NCBI GenBank assembly: GCA_037440825.1
Contig: JBBITJ010000028.1
Coordinates: forward strand, 1 to 9,084
Direction of reading: 5' to 3'
DNA: 9,084 bases
From: Candidatus Micrarchaeota archaeon
GTDB lineage: Archaea; Micrarchaeota; Micrarchaeia; Anstonellales; Bilamarchaeaceae
Shown here: positions 1,697 through 6,685 of the stretch, in pieces
How positions within the stretch are numbered: position 1 is the stretch's first letter
Layout: every line of letters starts with the position of its first letter
The notes under the pieces: generated by a model
Database searches by the model: none
What the model saw: the letters and a program-made list of their open reading frames with translations, nothing else
What the model was told of the DNA's origin: nothing
Position numbers and translations under genes: made by a program

Positions 1697-2251
1697 ATGT
1701 TCCCCGATCTTTCGGAAATAAAGAAGCGCCGCGTGCGTCTCGACCTCACGCAGAAGAGGCTGGCGCAGATAGCCGGAGTGTCGCAGAGCCTAATCGCGAA
1801 GATAGAGTCCGGGAAGATAGATCCGAGCTACTCTTCAGCGAGGAAGATATTCGGCGCTCTGGAGGGGTTCGTGCACGAGGAGAACAAGACCGCGCGGGAC
1901 ATCATGAGCCAGCACGTGCTTTCGGCCTCGCCGCAGGAGCCGCTGCGCTCCGTGCTTGAAACGATGCGCAAGAGGAACATAGAGCAGATGCCTGTTATGG
2001 AGAAGGACGCGGTGGTGGGAAGCGTGAGCGAGGACAGCATAGTACATTTCCTTTCGACTTACAAGGGAAGCAGGAACATCCTGGACCTGAAGGTGGGGGA
2101 CGTGATGGCCGAGTCGTTCCCGATAGTGAAGGAGGACGCGAACTACCGCCTGCTTCTCGAGCTTTTGAATTACAACCGCGCCGTATTGATAGCGAGGAAA
2201 GGGAAGGTCGTGGGAATAGTAACCAAGACCGACCTGCTCAAGACGCGATGA
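1697..2251 (+). CDS. XRE/Cro-type HTH transcriptional regulator with C-terminal CBS pair (COG3620-like)
   Basis: N-terminal HTH (LTQKRLAQIAGVSQSLIAKIESGKIDPSYS) followed by two CBS repeats (ARDIMS...MPVME...VVGSVSE; VGDVM...VVGIVTKTDLL). Confidence 0.92.
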   Translation: MFPDLSEIKKRRVRLDLTQKRLAQIAGVSQSLIAKIESGKIDPSYSSARKIFGALEGFVHEENKTARDIMSQHVLSASPQEPLRSVLETMRKRNIEQMPVMEKDAVVGSVSEDSIVHFLSTYKGSRNILDLKVGDVMAESFPIVKEDANYRLLLELLNYNRAVLIARKGKVVGIVTKTDLLKTR

Positions 2252-2267
2252 ACATGAAAATCAGCAT

Positions 2268-2321
2268 TCCCTTTTCTTTTAAAAGAAAAGACCTGAGTGA
2301 TCCACCCCAAAAGAAAACGAA
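2268..2321. repeat. Dispersed hairpin element, copy A (free-standing)
   Basis: TCCCTTTTCTTTTAAAAGAAAAGACCTGAGTGATCCACCCCAAAAGAAAACGAA. Contains the 20-bp palindrome CTTTTCTTTTAAAAGAAAAG (2271-2290) and aligns with 6583-6642. Lies between convergent genes, so its oligo-T tracts could also act as terminators on both strands. Confidence 0.8.
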
Positions 2322-2369: not shown

Positions 2370-2418
2370 AACCTAAGGGGGAACGCACGATTCCAGCAAA
2401 TATGTTCCCCCTTGGGTT
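2370..2418. repeat. Inverted repeat (15-bp stem) next to the tRNA-Ala 3' end
   Basis: AACCTAAGGGGGAAC (2370-2384) pairs with GTTCCCCCTTGGGTT (2404-2418), with one T-G position and a 19-nt loop. Confidence 0.75.
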
Positions 2419-2423
2419 TGTGA

Positions 2424-2495
2424 TGGACTCAGAGGGATTCGCACCCTCGGCCCCTCGCGTGCAAGGCGAGTGCTCTGCTGCTGAGCTATGAGCCC
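2424..2495 (-). tRNA. tRNA-Ala(UGC), 72 nt, CCA not encoded
   Basis: Reverse complement folds as GGGCTCA TA GCTC AGCAGCA GAGC A CTCGC CTTGCAC GCGAG GGGCC GAGGG TGCGAAT CCCTC TGAGTCC A. Anticodon TGC (2463-2461), G3:U70 alanine determinant, A73. TTTATAAA at 2526-2533 is about 30 nt upstream. Confidence 0.95.
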
Positions 2496-2604
2496 ATAAT
2501 TAGCGCATCTCTTACTCTGTGAAAATTTATAAAACGCACATTTAAATCGGGCGCTGCCCTAACAGTTGTTGCAGGCAAATGTTTTGTACTGTAAGGTTGA
2601 TGCG

Positions 2605-5560: not shown

Positions 5561-6022
5561 TTAAATTGTTTCTATGAGTTCAGCCTCGCTGTCCTCCTTG
5601 AAGTTGCCCAGCACTATCTTGGTGTTCACCCTCTGCACGCCTTCCACGCTGTTTATGTCGTTCACCAACCGCCCCAATGTGTCTATGTCCTTGCATGTCA
5701 CTATCGCTATGCCGTCGTATTCCCCGGTGGTGCGGTAGGCGTGGTGCACGTAGGGCATCTTCGCCACCTTCCTCATCGCGACGTCGGTCTTGCCTTCTAT
5801 GTCTATTTGTATTATGGCCGTTATCGCGTACCCTAGCTTCCTGAAGTCGAACACGGCCGTGTAGCGGGTTATCACGCCCTCCTTCTCCATCCTCCGCATG
5901 CGTTCTATTACAGTATTTGGATGGATCTTCAGCTCCTTCGCGATCTCCCTGCTGGAAAGCCGGGCATTCCTGCCCAAAAGCCGCAGGATTCCCACATCCT
6001 TCGCATCGTAGTCGTAAGCCAT
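5561..6022 (-). CDS. Lrp/AsnC family transcriptional regulator
   Basis: wHTH (DAKDVGILRLLGRNARLSSREIAKELKIHPNTVIERMRRMEKEGVITRY) plus RAM domain (YRTTGEYD, INSVEGVQRVNT). ATG 6022 is favoured, with TTTTTAAA (-) at 6054-6047. Confidence 0.94.
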   Translation of the reverse strand: MAYDYDAKDVGILRLLGRNARLSSREIAKELKIHPNTVIERMRRMEKEGVITRYTAVFDFRKLGYAITAIIQIDIEGKTDVAMRKVAKMPYVHHAYRTTGEYDGIAIVTCKDIDTLGRLVNDINSVEGVQRVNTKIVLGNFKEDSEAELIETI

Positions 6023-6025
6023 GCT

Positions 6026-6064
6026 TATACATTTGTATAGCAATAATTTAAAAATCTATACAAA
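6026..6064. promoter_or_regulatory. Inverted TATACA/TGTATA repeats around the Lrp-gene TATA box
   Basis: TATACA-TT-TGTATA at 6026-6039. TTTGTATAG (6032-6040) and CTATACAAA (6056-6064) form a perfect 9-bp inverted repeat bracketing TTTAAAAA (6047-6054). Confidence 0.55.
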
Positions 6065-6138
6065 AATCCTGAAAAAACTGGAAAACTTATATATACTTAT
6101 GAAACGTCCTATTACCTGGCAATAGCCGAGGTGGGAGC

Positions 6139-6233
6139 ATGAAGGAAATTGAAGCGAAGCGGGAGGCGAACAGGATCATGGCAGAGTTCGACTCCACCAT
6201 AAGGAACTACGGCACCACTTCGGTACGTTTTGC
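6139..6233 (+). CDS. Hypothetical protein, 5' fragment only (runs into assembly gap)
   Basis: TATA-like TTATATATA near 6087-6095, SD GAGGTG at 6128-6133, ATG 6139, and about 31 codons (MKEIEAKREANRIMAEFDSTIRNYGTTSVRF) before the Ns. Confidence 0.6.
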
Positions 6234-6333
6234 NNNNNNNNNNNNNNNNNNNNNNNNNNNNNNNNNNNNNNNNNNNNNNNNNNNNNNNNNNNNNNNNNNN
6301 NNNNNNNNNNNNNNNNNNNNNNNNNNNNNNNNN
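6234..6333. other. Assembly gap (exactly 100 N; true size unknown)
   Basis: A run of 100 N is the usual placeholder for a gap of unknown length. Confidence 0.97.
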
Positions 6334-6421
6334 CATTTTTTAAAGTTTTCCCATCTATATGTAATTACGCCTGATTCTCGATTTGCCTGTATTCCGTTTG
6401 GGGTGTGGGGAAATCAAGGAA

Positions 6422-6455
6422 AAACCGCTAGGGGGCTCTGCCCCCTAAGAGGTTT
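6422..6455. repeat. GC-rich hairpin immediately upstream of tRNA-Leu
   Basis: TAGGGGGC-TCT-GCCCCCTA (6429-6447), extended by AAACC (6422-6426) / GGTTT (6451-6455). Confidence 0.7.
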
Positions 6456-6499
6456 GTCTGCAGGGATGGCGGAGCCCGGTCAATCGCGCCAGACTCAAG

Positions 6500-6544
6500 G
6501 TTTCGTTCCGGAACGCAAAACGCAGAACCCGGAACACATAAGCA
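6500..6544 (+). other. tRNA intron 1, canonical position 37/38 (45 nt)
   Basis: Follows CAA-G37. BHB-like: CTCA (32-35) against TAAG (6539-6542), 3 of 4 pairs. Internal stem GTTCCGG (6505-6511) / CCGGAAC (6529-6535). Confidence 0.88.
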
Positions 6545-6576
6545 ATCTGGTGTCCTAGCGGCTACGAAGGTTCAAA

Positions 6577-6660
6577 CACATATCCCTTTTCTTTTTGCGA
6601 AAAGAAAAGGTCTAAGTGGTTCGCCCCAAAAAGAAAAACGAACTGCTGGTATGGTGGAAA
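6577..6660 (+). other. tRNA intron 2, non-canonical T-loop position 59/60 (84 nt)
   Basis: Central helix TTCA (6571-6574) pairs with TGGA (6655-6658). 3-nt bulges are AA|C and AA|T. Flanked by the T-stem and by CATATC (6579-6584) / GGTATG (6648-6653) after one A-G mismatch. Confidence 0.85.
6583..6642. repeat. Dispersed hairpin element, copy B (inside tRNA intron 2)
   Basis: TCCCTTTTCTTTTTGCGAAAAGAAAAGGTCTAAGTGGTTCGCCCCAAAAAGAAAAACGAA, with an 11-bp stem (6585-6595 / 6600-6610). Same orientation as copy A at 2268-2321. Confidence 0.8.
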
Positions 6661-6674
6661 TCCTTCTCCCTGCA

Positions 6675-6685
6675 TTTTTATTCTT
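6675..6685 (+). terminator. Oligo-T tract after tRNA-Leu (possible archaeal terminator)
   Basis: TTTTTATTCTT directly after discriminator A6674. Confidence 0.45.

What the first reader, a model, noticed from the sequence alone, without database searches (positions are those of the whole stretch)
6577..6660. A dispersed miniature element sits inside a tRNA T-loop intron and also occurs free-standing near another tRNA
Seen: 6583-6642 (inside intron 2 of tRNA-Leu) aligns with intergenic 2268-2321. 48 of 54 aligned bases are identical, all six substitutions are transitions in an 18-nt non-homopolymeric core (ACCTGAGTGATCCACCCC vs GTCTAAGTGGTTCGCCCC), and there is a 4-nt loop indel plus two 1-nt A-run indels. 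Deleting 6583-6642 leaves a compact 24-nt intron (CACATA+CTGCTGGTATGGTGGAAA) that still folds (CATACT/GGTATG) and keeps the BHB. Established: archaeal EndA recognises only the BHB structure, so intron interiors tolerate cargo, and excised archaeal introns can circularise. Inference: a non-autonomous MITE/REP-like element landed in a pre-existing intron as a safe haven, or excised intron RNA is a vehicle or source of the repeat. No target-site duplication or transposase is visible here, and the low-complexity tracts inflate the identity.
Basis: partly seen in the sequence, partly recalled or inferred. Interest (0 to 1): 0.85.

Follow-up and report, generated by a model that had tools for sequence, protein, structure and literature searches.

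The report
Triplex-type repeat module in tRNA introns
The repeat inside the tRNA-Leu intron is real and belongs to a large family of small three-armed, probably triple-helix-forming modules that sit in and beside tRNA genes of tiny DPANN archaea, which offers a new handle on how archaeal tRNA introns arise.

Summary
6583-6642 and 2268-2321 align as described (48/54, six transitions, three indels). The local score is 58, against 22.2±2.5 (max 34) for shuffles. The host gene is a two-intron tRNA-Leu(CAA).

The repeat is not a two-copy curiosity. 66 hits are archaeal, mostly DPANN MAGs, and 41 of those 66 resolve to tRNA introns or tRNA flanks.

The unit has three arms: pyrimidine arm, loop, complementary purine arm, linker, second purine arm. 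Where arms are asymmetric, the third arm mirrors the second (45 mirror, 3 direct). Stem changes keep one strand all-purine. This matches "intrastrand triplex" repeats known in bacteria (PMC4666352).

Homology between the window copies, and with a Micrarchaeota tRNA-Leu intron (L109), covers almost the whole intron. So the module is the intron's body, not cargo dropped into an older intron. Copy A holds the only oligo-T tracts between two convergent genes.

Function and mobility are inferred. Nine related copies are bracketed by 14-23-nt direct repeats, four ending exactly at tRNA termini. Interest 0.7; new variant of known kinds.

The parts
6460..6674 (+). tRNA-Leu(CAA) gene with two introns. 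Exons are 6460-6499, 6545-6576 and 6661-6674. A T5 run follows directly at 6675.
   Evidence: The in-silico spliced 86-nt product is called tRNA-Leu(caa) by ARAGORN. The unspliced gene is missed by ARAGORN and Rfam. T-runs are listed.
6500..6544 (+). Intron 1 (37/38, 45 nt). It has no module and its own 7-bp hairpin, 6504-6510 / 6529-6535.
   Evidence: Sequence, splicing test, no CM match.
6577..6660 (+). Intron 2 (59/60 in the T-loop, 84 nt). The whole intron equals module copy B plus short flanks that close the BHB.
6584..6596 (+). Copy B, pyrimidine arm Y (C3 T4 C T5).
   Evidence: CM match 6572-6643, 53.5 bits.
6600..6610 (+). Copy B, purine arm R1, complementary to Y (hairpin with loop 6597-6599).
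6611..6627 (+). Copy B linker, holding five of the six transitions (the sixth is at 6610). Its 3' part pairs either with the 5' flank (lower stem) or with 6639-6647 (second hairpin).
   Evidence: (I10).
6628..6638 (+). Copy B, second purine arm R2 (A5 G A5), preceded by CCCC.
2269..2280 (+). Copy A, pyrimidine arm Y. It holds the first T4 runs after the stop codon of the HTH-CBS gene (2249-2251).
   Evidence: CM match 2257-2323, 49.1 bits.
2281..2290 (+). Copy A, purine arm R1 (no loop between the arms).
2291..2308 (+). Copy A linker.
2309..2317 (+). Copy A, purine arm R2. On the minus strand it is the first T4 run downstream of tRNA-Ala.
2422..2496 (-). tRNA-Ala(TGC). Its 3' end faces copy A, 104 nt away.
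   Evidence: ARAGORN, Rfam tRNA 65.1 bits.
1697..2251 (+). HTH_3 + CBS-domain protein gene, convergent with tRNA-Ala. Copy A lies 17 nt after its stop.
   Evidence: Pfam. A 46%-identical homologue in L066 is followed by a module and a convergent tRNA in the same layout.

Best explanation
WHAT IT IS.
Both window copies are members of a widespread family of small structured modules. The order on one strand is: CC, a pyrimidine arm (about C T4 C T4), a loop of 0-8 nt, a complementary purine arm, a 10-22-nt linker that usually ends in CCC(C), then a second purine arm. Together with 6-12 nt on the 5' side and 12-85 nt on the 3' side, this unit forms tRNA introns in DPANN archaea. These lie at the T-loop most often, and also at the anticodon loop and D-arm. 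The unit also sits just beyond tRNA ends.

HOW IT FOLDS.
The first two arms form a hairpin. The third arm is constrained to be the mirror image of the second. That is the rule for a third strand lying antiparallel on the purine strand, as in a class II 'intrastrand triplex' motif. The complementary strand would form a U.A-U / T.A-T type triplex.

HOW IT MOST LIKELY WORKS (inferred).
1. It is a DNA-level, insertion- and duplication-prone structured repeat.
2. It persists in tRNA genes because its flanks complete a BHB with conserved tRNA loops, for example intron-end TGRAA with T-loop TTCA. The splicing endonuclease therefore removes it. Alternatively it lies outside the mature tRNA.
3. In this window, copy B is the body of intron 2.
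4. Copy A is an old intergenic copy whose arms supply the only oligo-T tracts for the convergent HTH-CBS gene and tRNA-Ala. It probably serves as their bidirectional terminator.

SHOWN VERSUS INFERRED.
Shown: family membership, tRNA linkage, hairpin covariation, mirror covariation, and flanking direct repeats in relatives.
Inferred: actual triplex formation, which strand and which nucleic acid folds, mobility, and terminator use.
For: FAMILY.
- By record title, 66 of the 119 loci held are archaeal: 20 Micrarchaeota including Anstonellaceae, 8 Aenigmatarchaeota, 5 Iainarchaeum/Diapherotrites, 4 Altiarchaeota, 3 Nanoarchaeia/Pacearchaeota/Norongarragalinales, 20 unnamed archaea, and 6 with other labels.

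CONTEXT of the 66 archaeal seeds.
- 12 lie in T-loop introns.
- 11 lie inside ARAGORN-called canonical-position introns.
- 11 lie 1-10 nt after a tRNA 3' end on the same strand.
- 4 face the 3' end of an opposite-strand tRNA at 4-84 nt.
- 2 lie 44-61 nt upstream of a tRNA.
- 1 lies in the D-arm.
- That is 41 of 66 resolved; 25 are unresolved.
- All 23 resolved intron copies are in tRNA sense.

EXTRA COPIES.
- A covariance model found 22 further top-strand, full-length matches at E<=5e-4 in 500 kb.
- About 21 of the 27 whose contexts I read are tRNA-linked by eye.
- The tRNA-Leu genes of L033, L046 and L059 each carry two modules.

HAIRPIN.
- 92.9% of cells are paired.
- 9 of 12 pairs show double changes (65 cells), and 0 of 500 shuffles reach this.
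- The inner 10 pairs change only between U-A and C-G (22 cells, plus 1 G-C). One strand therefore stays all-purine.

MIRROR RULE.
- Among asymmetric-arm hairpins with a third arm matching at least L-1: 45 mirror, 3 direct, 10 ties. With a margin of 2 or more: 13 versus 1.
- Cognate mirror match is 0.987 against 0.914 for non-cognate, permutation p<=1e-4. A perfect mirror occurs in 22 of 28 variant-arm modules, against a perfect direct repeat in 9 of 28.
- Bacterial repeats caught by the same scan obey the rule with arms up to 25 nt: 27 mirror, 0 direct, 11 ties.

LOWER STEM.
- The 5' flank pairs better with its own linker: -4.13 versus -3.00 kcal/mol, p=2e-4, n=90.

DNA-LEVEL EVENTS.
- 12 of 66 seeds have direct repeats of 14 nt or more beside the module, and 9 of these bracket it.
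- The distal repeat starts exactly at a tRNA terminus in L035, L105 and L066 (3' ends) and in L037 (5' end).

WINDOW.
- The first T4 runs downstream of both convergent genes lie in copy A.
- The same gene-module-convergent-tRNA layout occurs in L066, whose HTH-CBS protein is 46% identical.

LITERATURE.
Against: - The two window copies have mirror-symmetric arms (A4GA4, A5GA5). They cannot show the mirror rule themselves; it is family-level evidence.
- No triplex has been demonstrated. The R1-R2 linker (10-22 nt) is longer than the 1-6-nt loops used to define such motifs (PMC4666352).
- That paper states that purine-motif triplexes do not form in RNA. A triplex in the sense pre-tRNA is therefore doubtful, and the folding strand is unknown.
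- The bottom strand folds better as RNA (74 versus 18 of 93), but G+U composition confounds this.
- The seeds were ascertained with the window's own arm sequences, and the scan was truncated. Context proportions are therefore biased, and 25 of 66 contexts are unresolved.
- Some ARAGORN long-intron calls are unreliable: the isotypes called for L022, L045 and L092, and the opposite-strand calls in L043 and L054.
- Copies within one genome are diverged rather than near-identical. Recent transposition is not shown.
- No transposase or integrase was found in the window, and there are no direct repeats at the window copies.
- T4CT5 in the sense strand of intron 2 should itself promote termination if T4CT4 does so in copy A. 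The terminator reading and intron tolerance pull against each other.
- Conserved position next to the HTH-CBS gene in a distant relative suggests a host function rather than a selfish one.
Confidence: 0.5

Rival explanations
1. Host cis-element. The module is primarily a factor-independent, bidirectional transcription terminator or insulator for tRNA genes and their convergent neighbours. It gives one T-tract on one strand and two on the other, with non-B DNA structure reinforcing the block. Intron copies would be secondary captures of trailer sequence.
For: - 11 of 66 seeds begin 1-10 nt after a tRNA 3' end, where archaeal oligo-T terminators lie.
- In the window, the first T4 runs downstream of both convergent genes lie in copy A.
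- The same layout is kept in L066 at 46% protein identity.
- That archaeal RNA polymerase terminates at oligo-T is recalled knowledge.
Against: - At least 23 copies sit in sense orientation inside tRNA introns, where efficient termination would destroy the tRNA.
- tRNA-Leu uses a plain T5 at 6675 as its own presumptive terminator, yet carries T4 and T5 inside intron 2.
- Termination needs T-runs only. It explains neither the complementary arm nor the mirror rule.
- According to PMC4666352 (passage read), E. coli elements of this architecture showed no terminator activity.
Confidence: 0.2
2. RNA-level element. The hairpin plus A-rich third arm acts in the pre-tRNA or in the excised (possibly circular) intron or trailer fragment. 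It could be a self-contained fold that keeps a long insert from mispairing with exons and presents the BHB. It could be a protein-binding platform, or a stable small RNA made by tRNA-processing enzymes, as C/D-box RNAs are from tRNA-Trp introns.
For: - All 23 resolved intron copies are in tRNA sense.
- 11 trailer copies are in the same orientation, so both contexts would release the same RNA.
- The lower stem covaries with its own flank.
- Intron 2 folds well: -23.4 kcal/mol, z -2.9.
- There is precedent for functional cargo in archaeal tRNA introns (PMC4090602, passages read).
Against: - The sense RNA has one pyrimidine arm and two purine arms. A purine-motif triplex is reported not to form in RNA (PMC4666352, passage read), which leaves the mirror rule unexplained.
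- If transcription stops in the T-rich first arm of trailer copies, the other arms are never made.
- 4 seeds plus window copy A lie antisense to the adjacent tRNA.
- No Rfam family matches.
Confidence: 0.2
3. One reading: a non-autonomous MITE/REP-like transposable element that landed inside an already existing short T-loop intron.
For: - Module-free T-loop introns exist: L098:432, 46 nt, and a 13-nt 59/60 intron in ARMAN-2 (PMC3239211).
- The canonical intron of tRNA-Leu(CAA) lacks a module in the window but carries one in L046 and L059. The module is therefore gained or lost within an intron position.
- The in-silico deletion leaves a foldable 24-nt intron.
Against: - There are no true terminal inverted repeats, because the third arm mirrors rather than complements.
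- There is no fixed target duplication, and no transposase domain in the window.
- Homology with copy A and with L109 spans nearly the whole intron, including the closing helix.
- No orthologue with an empty 59/60 intron was found, although the search was biased towards module carriers.
Confidence: 0.08
4. Chance resemblance of two low-complexity A/T tracts.
For: 36 of the 48 identities lie in homopolymer-rich arms.
Against: - Score 58 versus a maximum of 34 in 200 dinucleotide shuffles.
- 12 of 18 linker positions are identical, with only transitions.
- There are dozens of relatives with the same architecture and with covariation.
Confidence: 0.01

Closest known systems
Intrastrand triplex motifs of prokaryotes (class II; PIT elements / BoxC / TMECO; Holder et al. 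2015, PMC4666352)
   Same: Three consecutive blocks on one strand in the order pyrimidine, purine, purine. The second block is complementary to the first, and the third is placed to lie antiparallel on the second. They are multi-copy, intergenic and of unknown function, and are associated with local rearrangements. The bacterial repeats caught by the same scan are plain A/T-rich examples.
   Different: The archaeal module is A/T-rich and has a long second linker (10-22 nt versus 1-6). That linker carries a lower-stem strand and a CCC(C) tract. The module is tied to tRNA genes and is spliced out as a BHB intron. My searches of the held library found no paper that links such motifs to tRNA introns or to archaea specifically.
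Families of similar tRNA introns spread among different tRNA genes ('large-scale intron transposition', Thermoproteales; Fujishima et al. 2010, seen only as cited in PMC4090602 and PMC3239211)
   Same: [quoted passage not shown] BHB junctions make them harmless. The mechanism is unknown but thought to act at the DNA level.
   Different: The lineage differs (DPANN rather than Thermoproteales). The family here has a defined structured core with three-way covariation. It also occurs in tRNA trailers, leaders and other intergenic sites, and some copies are bracketed by direct repeats of tRNA termini.
MITEs and REP/BIME-type bacterial repeats
   Same: Small (60-150 nt), non-coding, multi-copy and hairpin-forming, found in non-coding DNA.
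   Different: No terminal inverted repeats, no fixed target-site duplication and no cognate transposase were seen. Copies within a genome are diverged and each keeps its own compensating arms.
C/D-box sRNA nested in the archaeal tRNA-Trp intron (PMC4090602)
   Same: A long archaeal tRNA intron carrying a conserved structured insert that is released by the splicing endonuclease.
   Different: There are no C/D boxes and no Rfam match. The insert occurs in many tRNAs and positions, not in a single one.
ENE/MALAT1-type U.A-U RNA triple helices (recalled; reviews listed were not read)
   Same: The complementary strand of the module reads U-rich, U-rich, A-rich in the order needed for such a helix, with a single C/G interruption.
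   Different: That strand is antisense to the tRNA in every intron copy. No transcript is known, and there is no match to Rfam ENE families.

Membership tests
Intrastrand triplex motif, class II (PMC4666352) | Three homopyrimidine/homopurine blocks on one strand in the order Y, R, R | tested here: met
   Both window copies and 94 archaeal modules. Stem changes keep the strands pure: U-A/C-G only in the inner 10 pairs, plus 1 G-C.
Intrastrand triplex motif, class II (PMC4666352) | Block 2 is Watson-Crick complementary to block 1 | tested here: met
   92.9% of cells paired, 9 of 12 pairs with double changes, 0 of 500 shuffles as high.
Intrastrand triplex motif, class II (PMC4666352) | Block 3 matches block 2 read backwards (antiparallel purine-purine register) | tested here: met
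   Family level: 45 mirror, 3 direct, 10 ties; permutation p<=1e-4. In the two window copies the arms are mirror-symmetric, so the feature is met only trivially.
Intrastrand triplex motif, class II (PMC4666352) | Short loops (1-6 nt in the ITxF definition) | tested here: not met
   The first loop is 0-8 nt. The second linker is 10-22 nt in the archaeal modules, and 18 and 17 nt in the window.
Intrastrand triplex motif, class II (PMC4666352) | Triplex actually forms (CD, NMR, footprinting) | not testable with these tools
   No tool here models base triples.
Archaeal BHB tRNA intron | Removal yields a canonical tRNA | tested here: met
   The 86-nt product is called tRNA-Leu(caa).
Archaeal BHB tRNA intron | Bulge-helix-bulge at both splice sites | tested here: met
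   An hBHBh' can be drawn by hand. The MFE fold gives a close variant. Cleavage itself is not testable.
MITE | Terminal inverted repeats | tested here: not met
   In asymmetric copies the 3' arm is the mirror of R1, hence not the reverse complement of the 5' arm.
MITE | Target-site duplication of fixed length | tested here: not met
   None at the window copies. In relatives, 12-23-nt repeats of variable length occur in a minority of copies.
MITE / REP-RAYT | Cognate transposase (DDE, Y1/HUH) in the genome | not tested
   Only the window's ORFs were scanned, and no such domain was found. The genome is not available.
Transposed tRNA-intron families (Fujishima 2010, as cited) | Similar intron sequences in different tRNA genes and at different positions | tested here: met
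   The same linker subfamilies occur in Met, Arg and other tRNAs, and in D-loop, anticodon-loop, T-loop and trailer positions.
C/D-box or H/ACA guide RNA in an intron | Box motifs / covariance-model match | tested here: not met
   No Rfam match at E<=1 in the window other than tRNA-Ala.
Archaeal oligo-T terminator (copy A) | First T-run directly downstream of the gene end | tested here: met
   T4 runs at 2272 and 2277 after the stop at 2251. T4 runs at 2317, 2312, 2289 and 2284 on the minus strand after tRNA-Ala. Termination itself is not testable.

The most novel reading that the evidence does not exclude
DPANN archaea harbour a lineage-wide class of tRNA-gene-specific mini-insertions whose core folds into an intramolecular triple helix. 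These units create new BHB introns by inserting next to conserved tRNA loops, and otherwise leave duplicated tRNA ends behind. The triple helix would be required for their propagation, or for control of tRNA transcription. That would make them the first natural triplex-based mobile introns, and a concrete answer to how archaeal tRNA introns arrive.
Probability: 0.3. Interest if true: 0.88.

Novelty: new variant of a known kind. Interest (0 to 1): 0.7.

Why it matters
How archaeal tRNA introns are gained is an open question. A 2026 preprint on Asgard tRNA introns concludes that "how they arrive remains open" (10.64898/2026.10.13.758758, abstract read).

Three things make the question testable here:
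- A recognisable, structured unit makes up introns at several positions of many tRNA genes across DPANN phyla.
- The same unit occurs outside tRNA genes.
- In some copies it is bracketed by duplicated tRNA termini, which gives comparative genomics and biochemistry something concrete to work on.

The finding would also give intrastrand-triplex repeats their first clear genomic niche, together with strong covariation evidence for a third strand. On the practical side, it explains why standard tRNA finders miss these genes.

Tried and rejected
- Known RNA families: Rfam at E<=1 found only tRNA-Ala in the window. A second scan of 20 small loci found only tRNAs and one weak SRP-like hit, and proved too insensitive for intron-split tRNAs.
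- C/D-box or H/ACA guide: no boxes found. CUGA and GUGAUC in copy A are not kept in copy B.
- Alternative-hairpin switch (Y pairing with either R1 or R2): rejected. In asymmetric copies R2 is not Watson-Crick complementary to Y.
- Split tRNA in cis, with a promoter in R2: rejected. The distance from R2 to the 3' splice site varies from 12 to 74 nt, and the 3' piece would be only 14 nt.
- Viral or plasmid origin: intron 2 has no blastn match in the phage or plasmid collections. The low-complexity filter was on.
- Strand choice from folding energy: the bottom strand folds better, but this is confounded by G+U content, so it was not used.
- Brute-force excision plus ARAGORN with long introns allowed gave many spurious isotypes. 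It was replaced by the stricter runs and a structural T-loop test. The first version of that test was too permissive (231 hits); the second gave 26.
- Possible derivation of the linker from T-arm sequence (13/16 match at 2430-2445): not pursued, and within chance (6 of 200 shuffles).
- Taxon of the window: not established. It is only inferred as Micrarchaeota-like from L109 and L066.
- Not checked: the window's own genome (absent from, or beyond, the truncated scan), metagenome and viral contig collections (closed), and any transcript data.
Full report
1. THE OBSERVATION.

The two stretches are in the sequence as described.
- The local alignment has 54 aligned columns, of which 48 are identical.
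- There are six substitutions, all transitions inside the 18-nt stretch between the purine tracts.
- There is a 4-nt loop indel and two single-A indels.
- The alignment scores 58, against 22.2 ± 2.5 (maximum 34) for 200 dinucleotide shuffles of the intron searched against the rest of the window.
- The repeat finder lists the pair as D6.
- No third copy exists in the window.

The host gene is real, although ARAGORN and Rfam do not see it. Cutting out 6500-6544 and 6577-6660 gives an 86-nt sequence that ARAGORN folds as tRNA-Leu(caa). At 59/60 a canonical helix-bulge-helix-bulge-helix can be drawn. The MFE fold is a close variant.

Copy A therefore resembles nearly the whole intron.

2. SURROUNDINGS (Pfam; tRNA-Ala).

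Gene order in the window:
- CTP synthase (-)
- an HTH_3/CBS protein (+, 1697-2251)
- copy A (2269-2317)
- tRNA-Ala(TGC) (-, 2422-2496)
- ribose-5-phosphate isomerase
- an MFS transporter
- a DUF359 protein
- a PRC-barrel protein
- an Lrp/AsnC regulator
- an AT-rich spacer
- tRNA-Leu (+)
- a TPR protein

No transposase or integrase domain was found.

Copy A lies between two convergent genes. The first runs of four or more T downstream of each of them are the arms of copy A. tRNA-Leu has its own T5 directly after the discriminator base. It nevertheless carries T4 and T5 in the sense strand of intron 2.

3. RELATIVES.

119 loci are held.

By record title, 66 loci are archaeal:
- 20 Micrarchaeota, including Anstonellaceae
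- 8 Aenigmatarchaeota
- 5 Iainarchaeum/Diapherotrites
- 4 Altiarchaeota
- 3 Nanoarchaeia/Pacearchaeota/Norongarragalinales
- 20 unnamed archaea
- 6 labelled Methanobacteriota, Thermoplasmatales or Methanophagales

The other 53 loci are bacterial MAGs. The window's own genome was not among the loci returned.

The nearest relative is L109, a Micrarchaeota MAG. There, a tRNA-Leu(TAG) has a T-loop intron 89% identical to intron 2 over 55 nt, with the same flanks.

4. WHERE THE ARCHAEAL COPIES SIT.

I combined three tests: ARAGORN on intact flanks, ARAGORN after trial excisions, and a structural test for T-loop introns. The structural test requires a G53-ending T-stem, TTCRA, a matching 3' stem and a 7-bp acceptor stem.

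Of the 66 seeds:
- 12 are T-loop introns (11 by the structural test, plus L018 by the excision test).
- 11 lie inside introns that ARAGORN places at the anticodon loop. Two of these are confirmed by Rfam. Several isotype calls are doubtful, and one looks like a D-loop site by eye.
- 11 begin 1-10 nt after a tRNA 3' end on the same strand.
- 4 face the 3' end of a tRNA on the other strand at 4-84 nt. Window copy A does the same at 104 nt.
- 2 lie 44-61 nt upstream of a tRNA.
- 1 is in the D-arm.

That makes 41 of 66 resolved and 25 unresolved. Several of the unresolved have tRNA-like flanks by eye. All 23 resolved intron copies are in tRNA sense. Two further opposite-strand ARAGORN calls (L043, L054) look unreliable.

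The ascertainment is biased: the pattern came from this window and the scan was truncated.

5. MORE COPIES NEARBY.

A covariance model of 63 copies was searched over 500 kb of archaeal loci plus the window.
- It found 88 matches at E<=5e-4. 68 are seeds and 20 are further matches, of which 18 are full-length top-strand copies with diverged arms and 2 are reverse-strand matches overlapping seeds.
- About 21 of the 27 whose contexts I read are again in or beside tRNA genes (by eye).
- The tRNA-Leu genes of L033, L046 and L059 each carry two modules.
- Among the six non-seed T-loop introns I judged credible, two carry variant modules, three carry short or degenerate ones, and one (L098:432, 46 nt) carries none.
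- ARMAN-2 has a 13-nt 59/60 intron (PMC3239211, passages read).
- The window's intron 1 lacks a module, while the same position in L046 and L059 has one.

6. ANATOMY AND COVARIATION.

The consensus is CC, pyrimidine arm, loop, purine arm, G, linker, CCC, purine arm.

(a) Hairpin (the alignment is fitted to the model, which favours it somewhat).
- 92.9% of cells pair.
- 9 of 12 pairs show double changes (65 cells). No shuffle of 500 reaches this, and slid registers fall to 60-76%.
- In the inner ten pairs the changes are only U-A to C-G (22 cells, plus one G-C). The 3' strand therefore stays all-purine. A plain hairpin does not need this restriction.

(b) Third arm.
- An independent scan took every pyrimidine/purine hairpin in the archaeal loci. 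It asked whether the next purine tract matches the middle arm read forwards or backwards.
- Among asymmetric arms with a good third arm: 45 mirror, 3 direct, 10 ties. With a margin of two or more: 13 versus 1.
- Examples include T3CTCT4 / A4GAGA3 / A3GAGA4 (L047) and T5CT3CTCT / AGAGA3GA5 / A5GA3GAGA (L071).
- Cognate third arms fit the mirror better than those of other modules: 0.987 versus 0.914, p<=1e-4.
- A perfect mirror occurs in 22 of 28 variant-arm modules, against a perfect direct repeat in 9 of 28.
- The bacterial repeats in the same haul obey the rule with arms up to 25 nt: 27 mirror, 0 direct, 11 ties.

(c) Lower stem.
- The 5' flank pairs with its own linker better than with others: -4.13 versus -3.00 kcal/mol, p=2e-4, n=90.

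A mirror relation excludes an alternative-hairpin switch. To my knowledge it has one structural rationale: a third strand aligned antiparallel to the purine strand, or the parallel pyrimidine version on the complementary strand. The window's two copies have mirror-symmetric arms, so they fit the rule only trivially.

7. WHAT IS KNOWN.

Holder et al. 2015 (PMC4666352; abstract, sections 15-16 and passages read) describe four classes of intrastrand triplex motif.
- Class II is pyrimidine, then purine, then a reverse-Hoogsteen purine at the 3' end.
- Such motifs are far more common in prokaryotic genomes than in scrambled genomes.
- One G/C-rich family (BoxC/PIT/TMECO) forms a triplex in vitro, has no known function, and marks rearranged loci.
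- They state that purine-motif triplexes do not form in RNA, while pyrimidine-type ones do.

The review PMC4090602 (passages read) gives three relevant points:
- Introns are 11-129 nt, with medians of 12-25 nt.
- There is a C/D-box RNA in the tRNA-Trp intron.
- Fujishima et al. 2010 proposed that similar introns in different Thermoproteales tRNA genes reflect DNA-level intron transposition by an unknown mechanism.

Six full-text searches found no paper that links triplex-type repeats to tRNA introns, or that describes a conserved module in DPANN tRNA introns. This holds for the held library only.

8. SIGNS OF DNA-LEVEL EVENTS.

- 12 of 66 seeds have an exact direct repeat of 14 nt or more with one copy within 45 nt 5' of the pyrimidine arm. 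In 9 of these the repeats bracket the module, with the distal copy 64-127 nt from the arm's start.
- The distal copy begins exactly at the 3' end of an opposite-strand tRNA in L035, L105 and L066, and exactly at the 5' end of a same-strand tRNA in L037. L061 looks alike.
- In L113 the distal copy is the start of a protein gene. L011 and L094 are tandem copies.
- The repeats vary in length, so they are not classical transposase footprints. They could be att-like duplications, products of template switching at a stalling structure, or relics of intron loss. I cannot decide between these.
- Neither window copy has such repeats.
- Copies within one genome are diverged, so nothing shows recent movement.

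9. COPY A IN CONTEXT.

A 46%-identical HTH-CBS gene in L066 (Micrarchaeota) is likewise followed, on the same strand, by a module and then a convergent tRNA. The site is therefore old and possibly useful to the host. Together with the T-run positions, this supports a terminator role for copy A. Intron copies cannot share that role without harming the tRNA.

10. VERDICT.

- The 'dispersed element' reading is supported. The MITE mechanism and the 'landing in an older intron' are not.
- The best account is a tRNA-linked member of the intrastrand-triplex class of repeats that forms the body of BHB introns and tRNA flanks in DPANN archaea.
- Hairpin and mirror constraints are shown. Triplex formation, the folding strand, mobility and function are inferred.
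- Confidence in the composite explanation is 0.5. Confidence in family membership and architecture is about 0.9.

Noticed in passing
L035:10001-10047, L105:301-347, L066:407-449, L037:1710-1752, L061:9739-9783 and flanks: Module-bearing segments of about 90-160 nt are bracketed by 15-23-nt exact direct repeats. The distal copy is the terminal stretch of a tRNA gene: the 3' end on the opposite strand in three loci, the 5' end on the same strand in two. Other loci (L011, L055, L094, L113) have similar repeats of non-tRNA sequence.
   Followed up: partly
L020, L031, L051, L052, L063, L064, L074, L095, L118, L119 (Selenomonadaceae MAGs); also L014, L015, L021, L023 (Clostridia MAGs): Multi-copy bacterial repeats have the same pyrimidine / purine / mirror-purine layout but much longer arms (up to 25 nt, perfect mirror) and very short linkers. 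Arm sequences differ between copies while the three-way relation is kept.
   Followed up: partly
window 2375-2413: A 10-bp G+C-rich hairpin (2375-2384 / 2404-2413, 19-nt loop) lies between tRNA-Ala and copy A. Comparable G+C-rich hairpins lie between reverse-oriented modules and the neighbouring tRNA in L017, L035, L040 and L107.
   Followed up: no
window 6500-6544: Intron 1 of tRNA-Leu(CAA) has no module, only its own 7-bp hairpin. The same intron position in the tRNA-Leu(CAA) genes of L046 and L059 carries a module, so module presence is polymorphic at one intron site.
   Followed up: partly
window 6460-6674: Neither ARAGORN nor the Rfam tRNA model detects this two-intron tRNA gene. The Rfam model also missed the T-loop-intron genes in L080, L084, L098 and L109, so tRNA sets of such genomes will be under-called by standard tools.
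   Followed up: yes
window 1697-2251 and L066:675-1220: The HTH_3 + CBS-domain protein gene is followed by a module and a convergent tRNA in both the window and a Micrarchaeota MAG, at 46% protein identity. In L066 a short cysteine-rich reading frame seems to lie between the gene and the module.
   Followed up: partly
window 6000-6450: An A+T-rich stretch (G+C about 0.32, against about 0.55 elsewhere) lies upstream of tRNA-Leu. It has a 27-nt imperfect inverted repeat (6028-6054 / 6337-6363) flanking a 74-codon ORF with no Pfam match.
   Followed up: no
L008:9771-10135: One tRNA gene has a 132-nt T-loop insert that holds a forward module followed by a second, reverse-oriented, weaker module (L008:10062-10123, 27.8 bits).
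   Followed up: no
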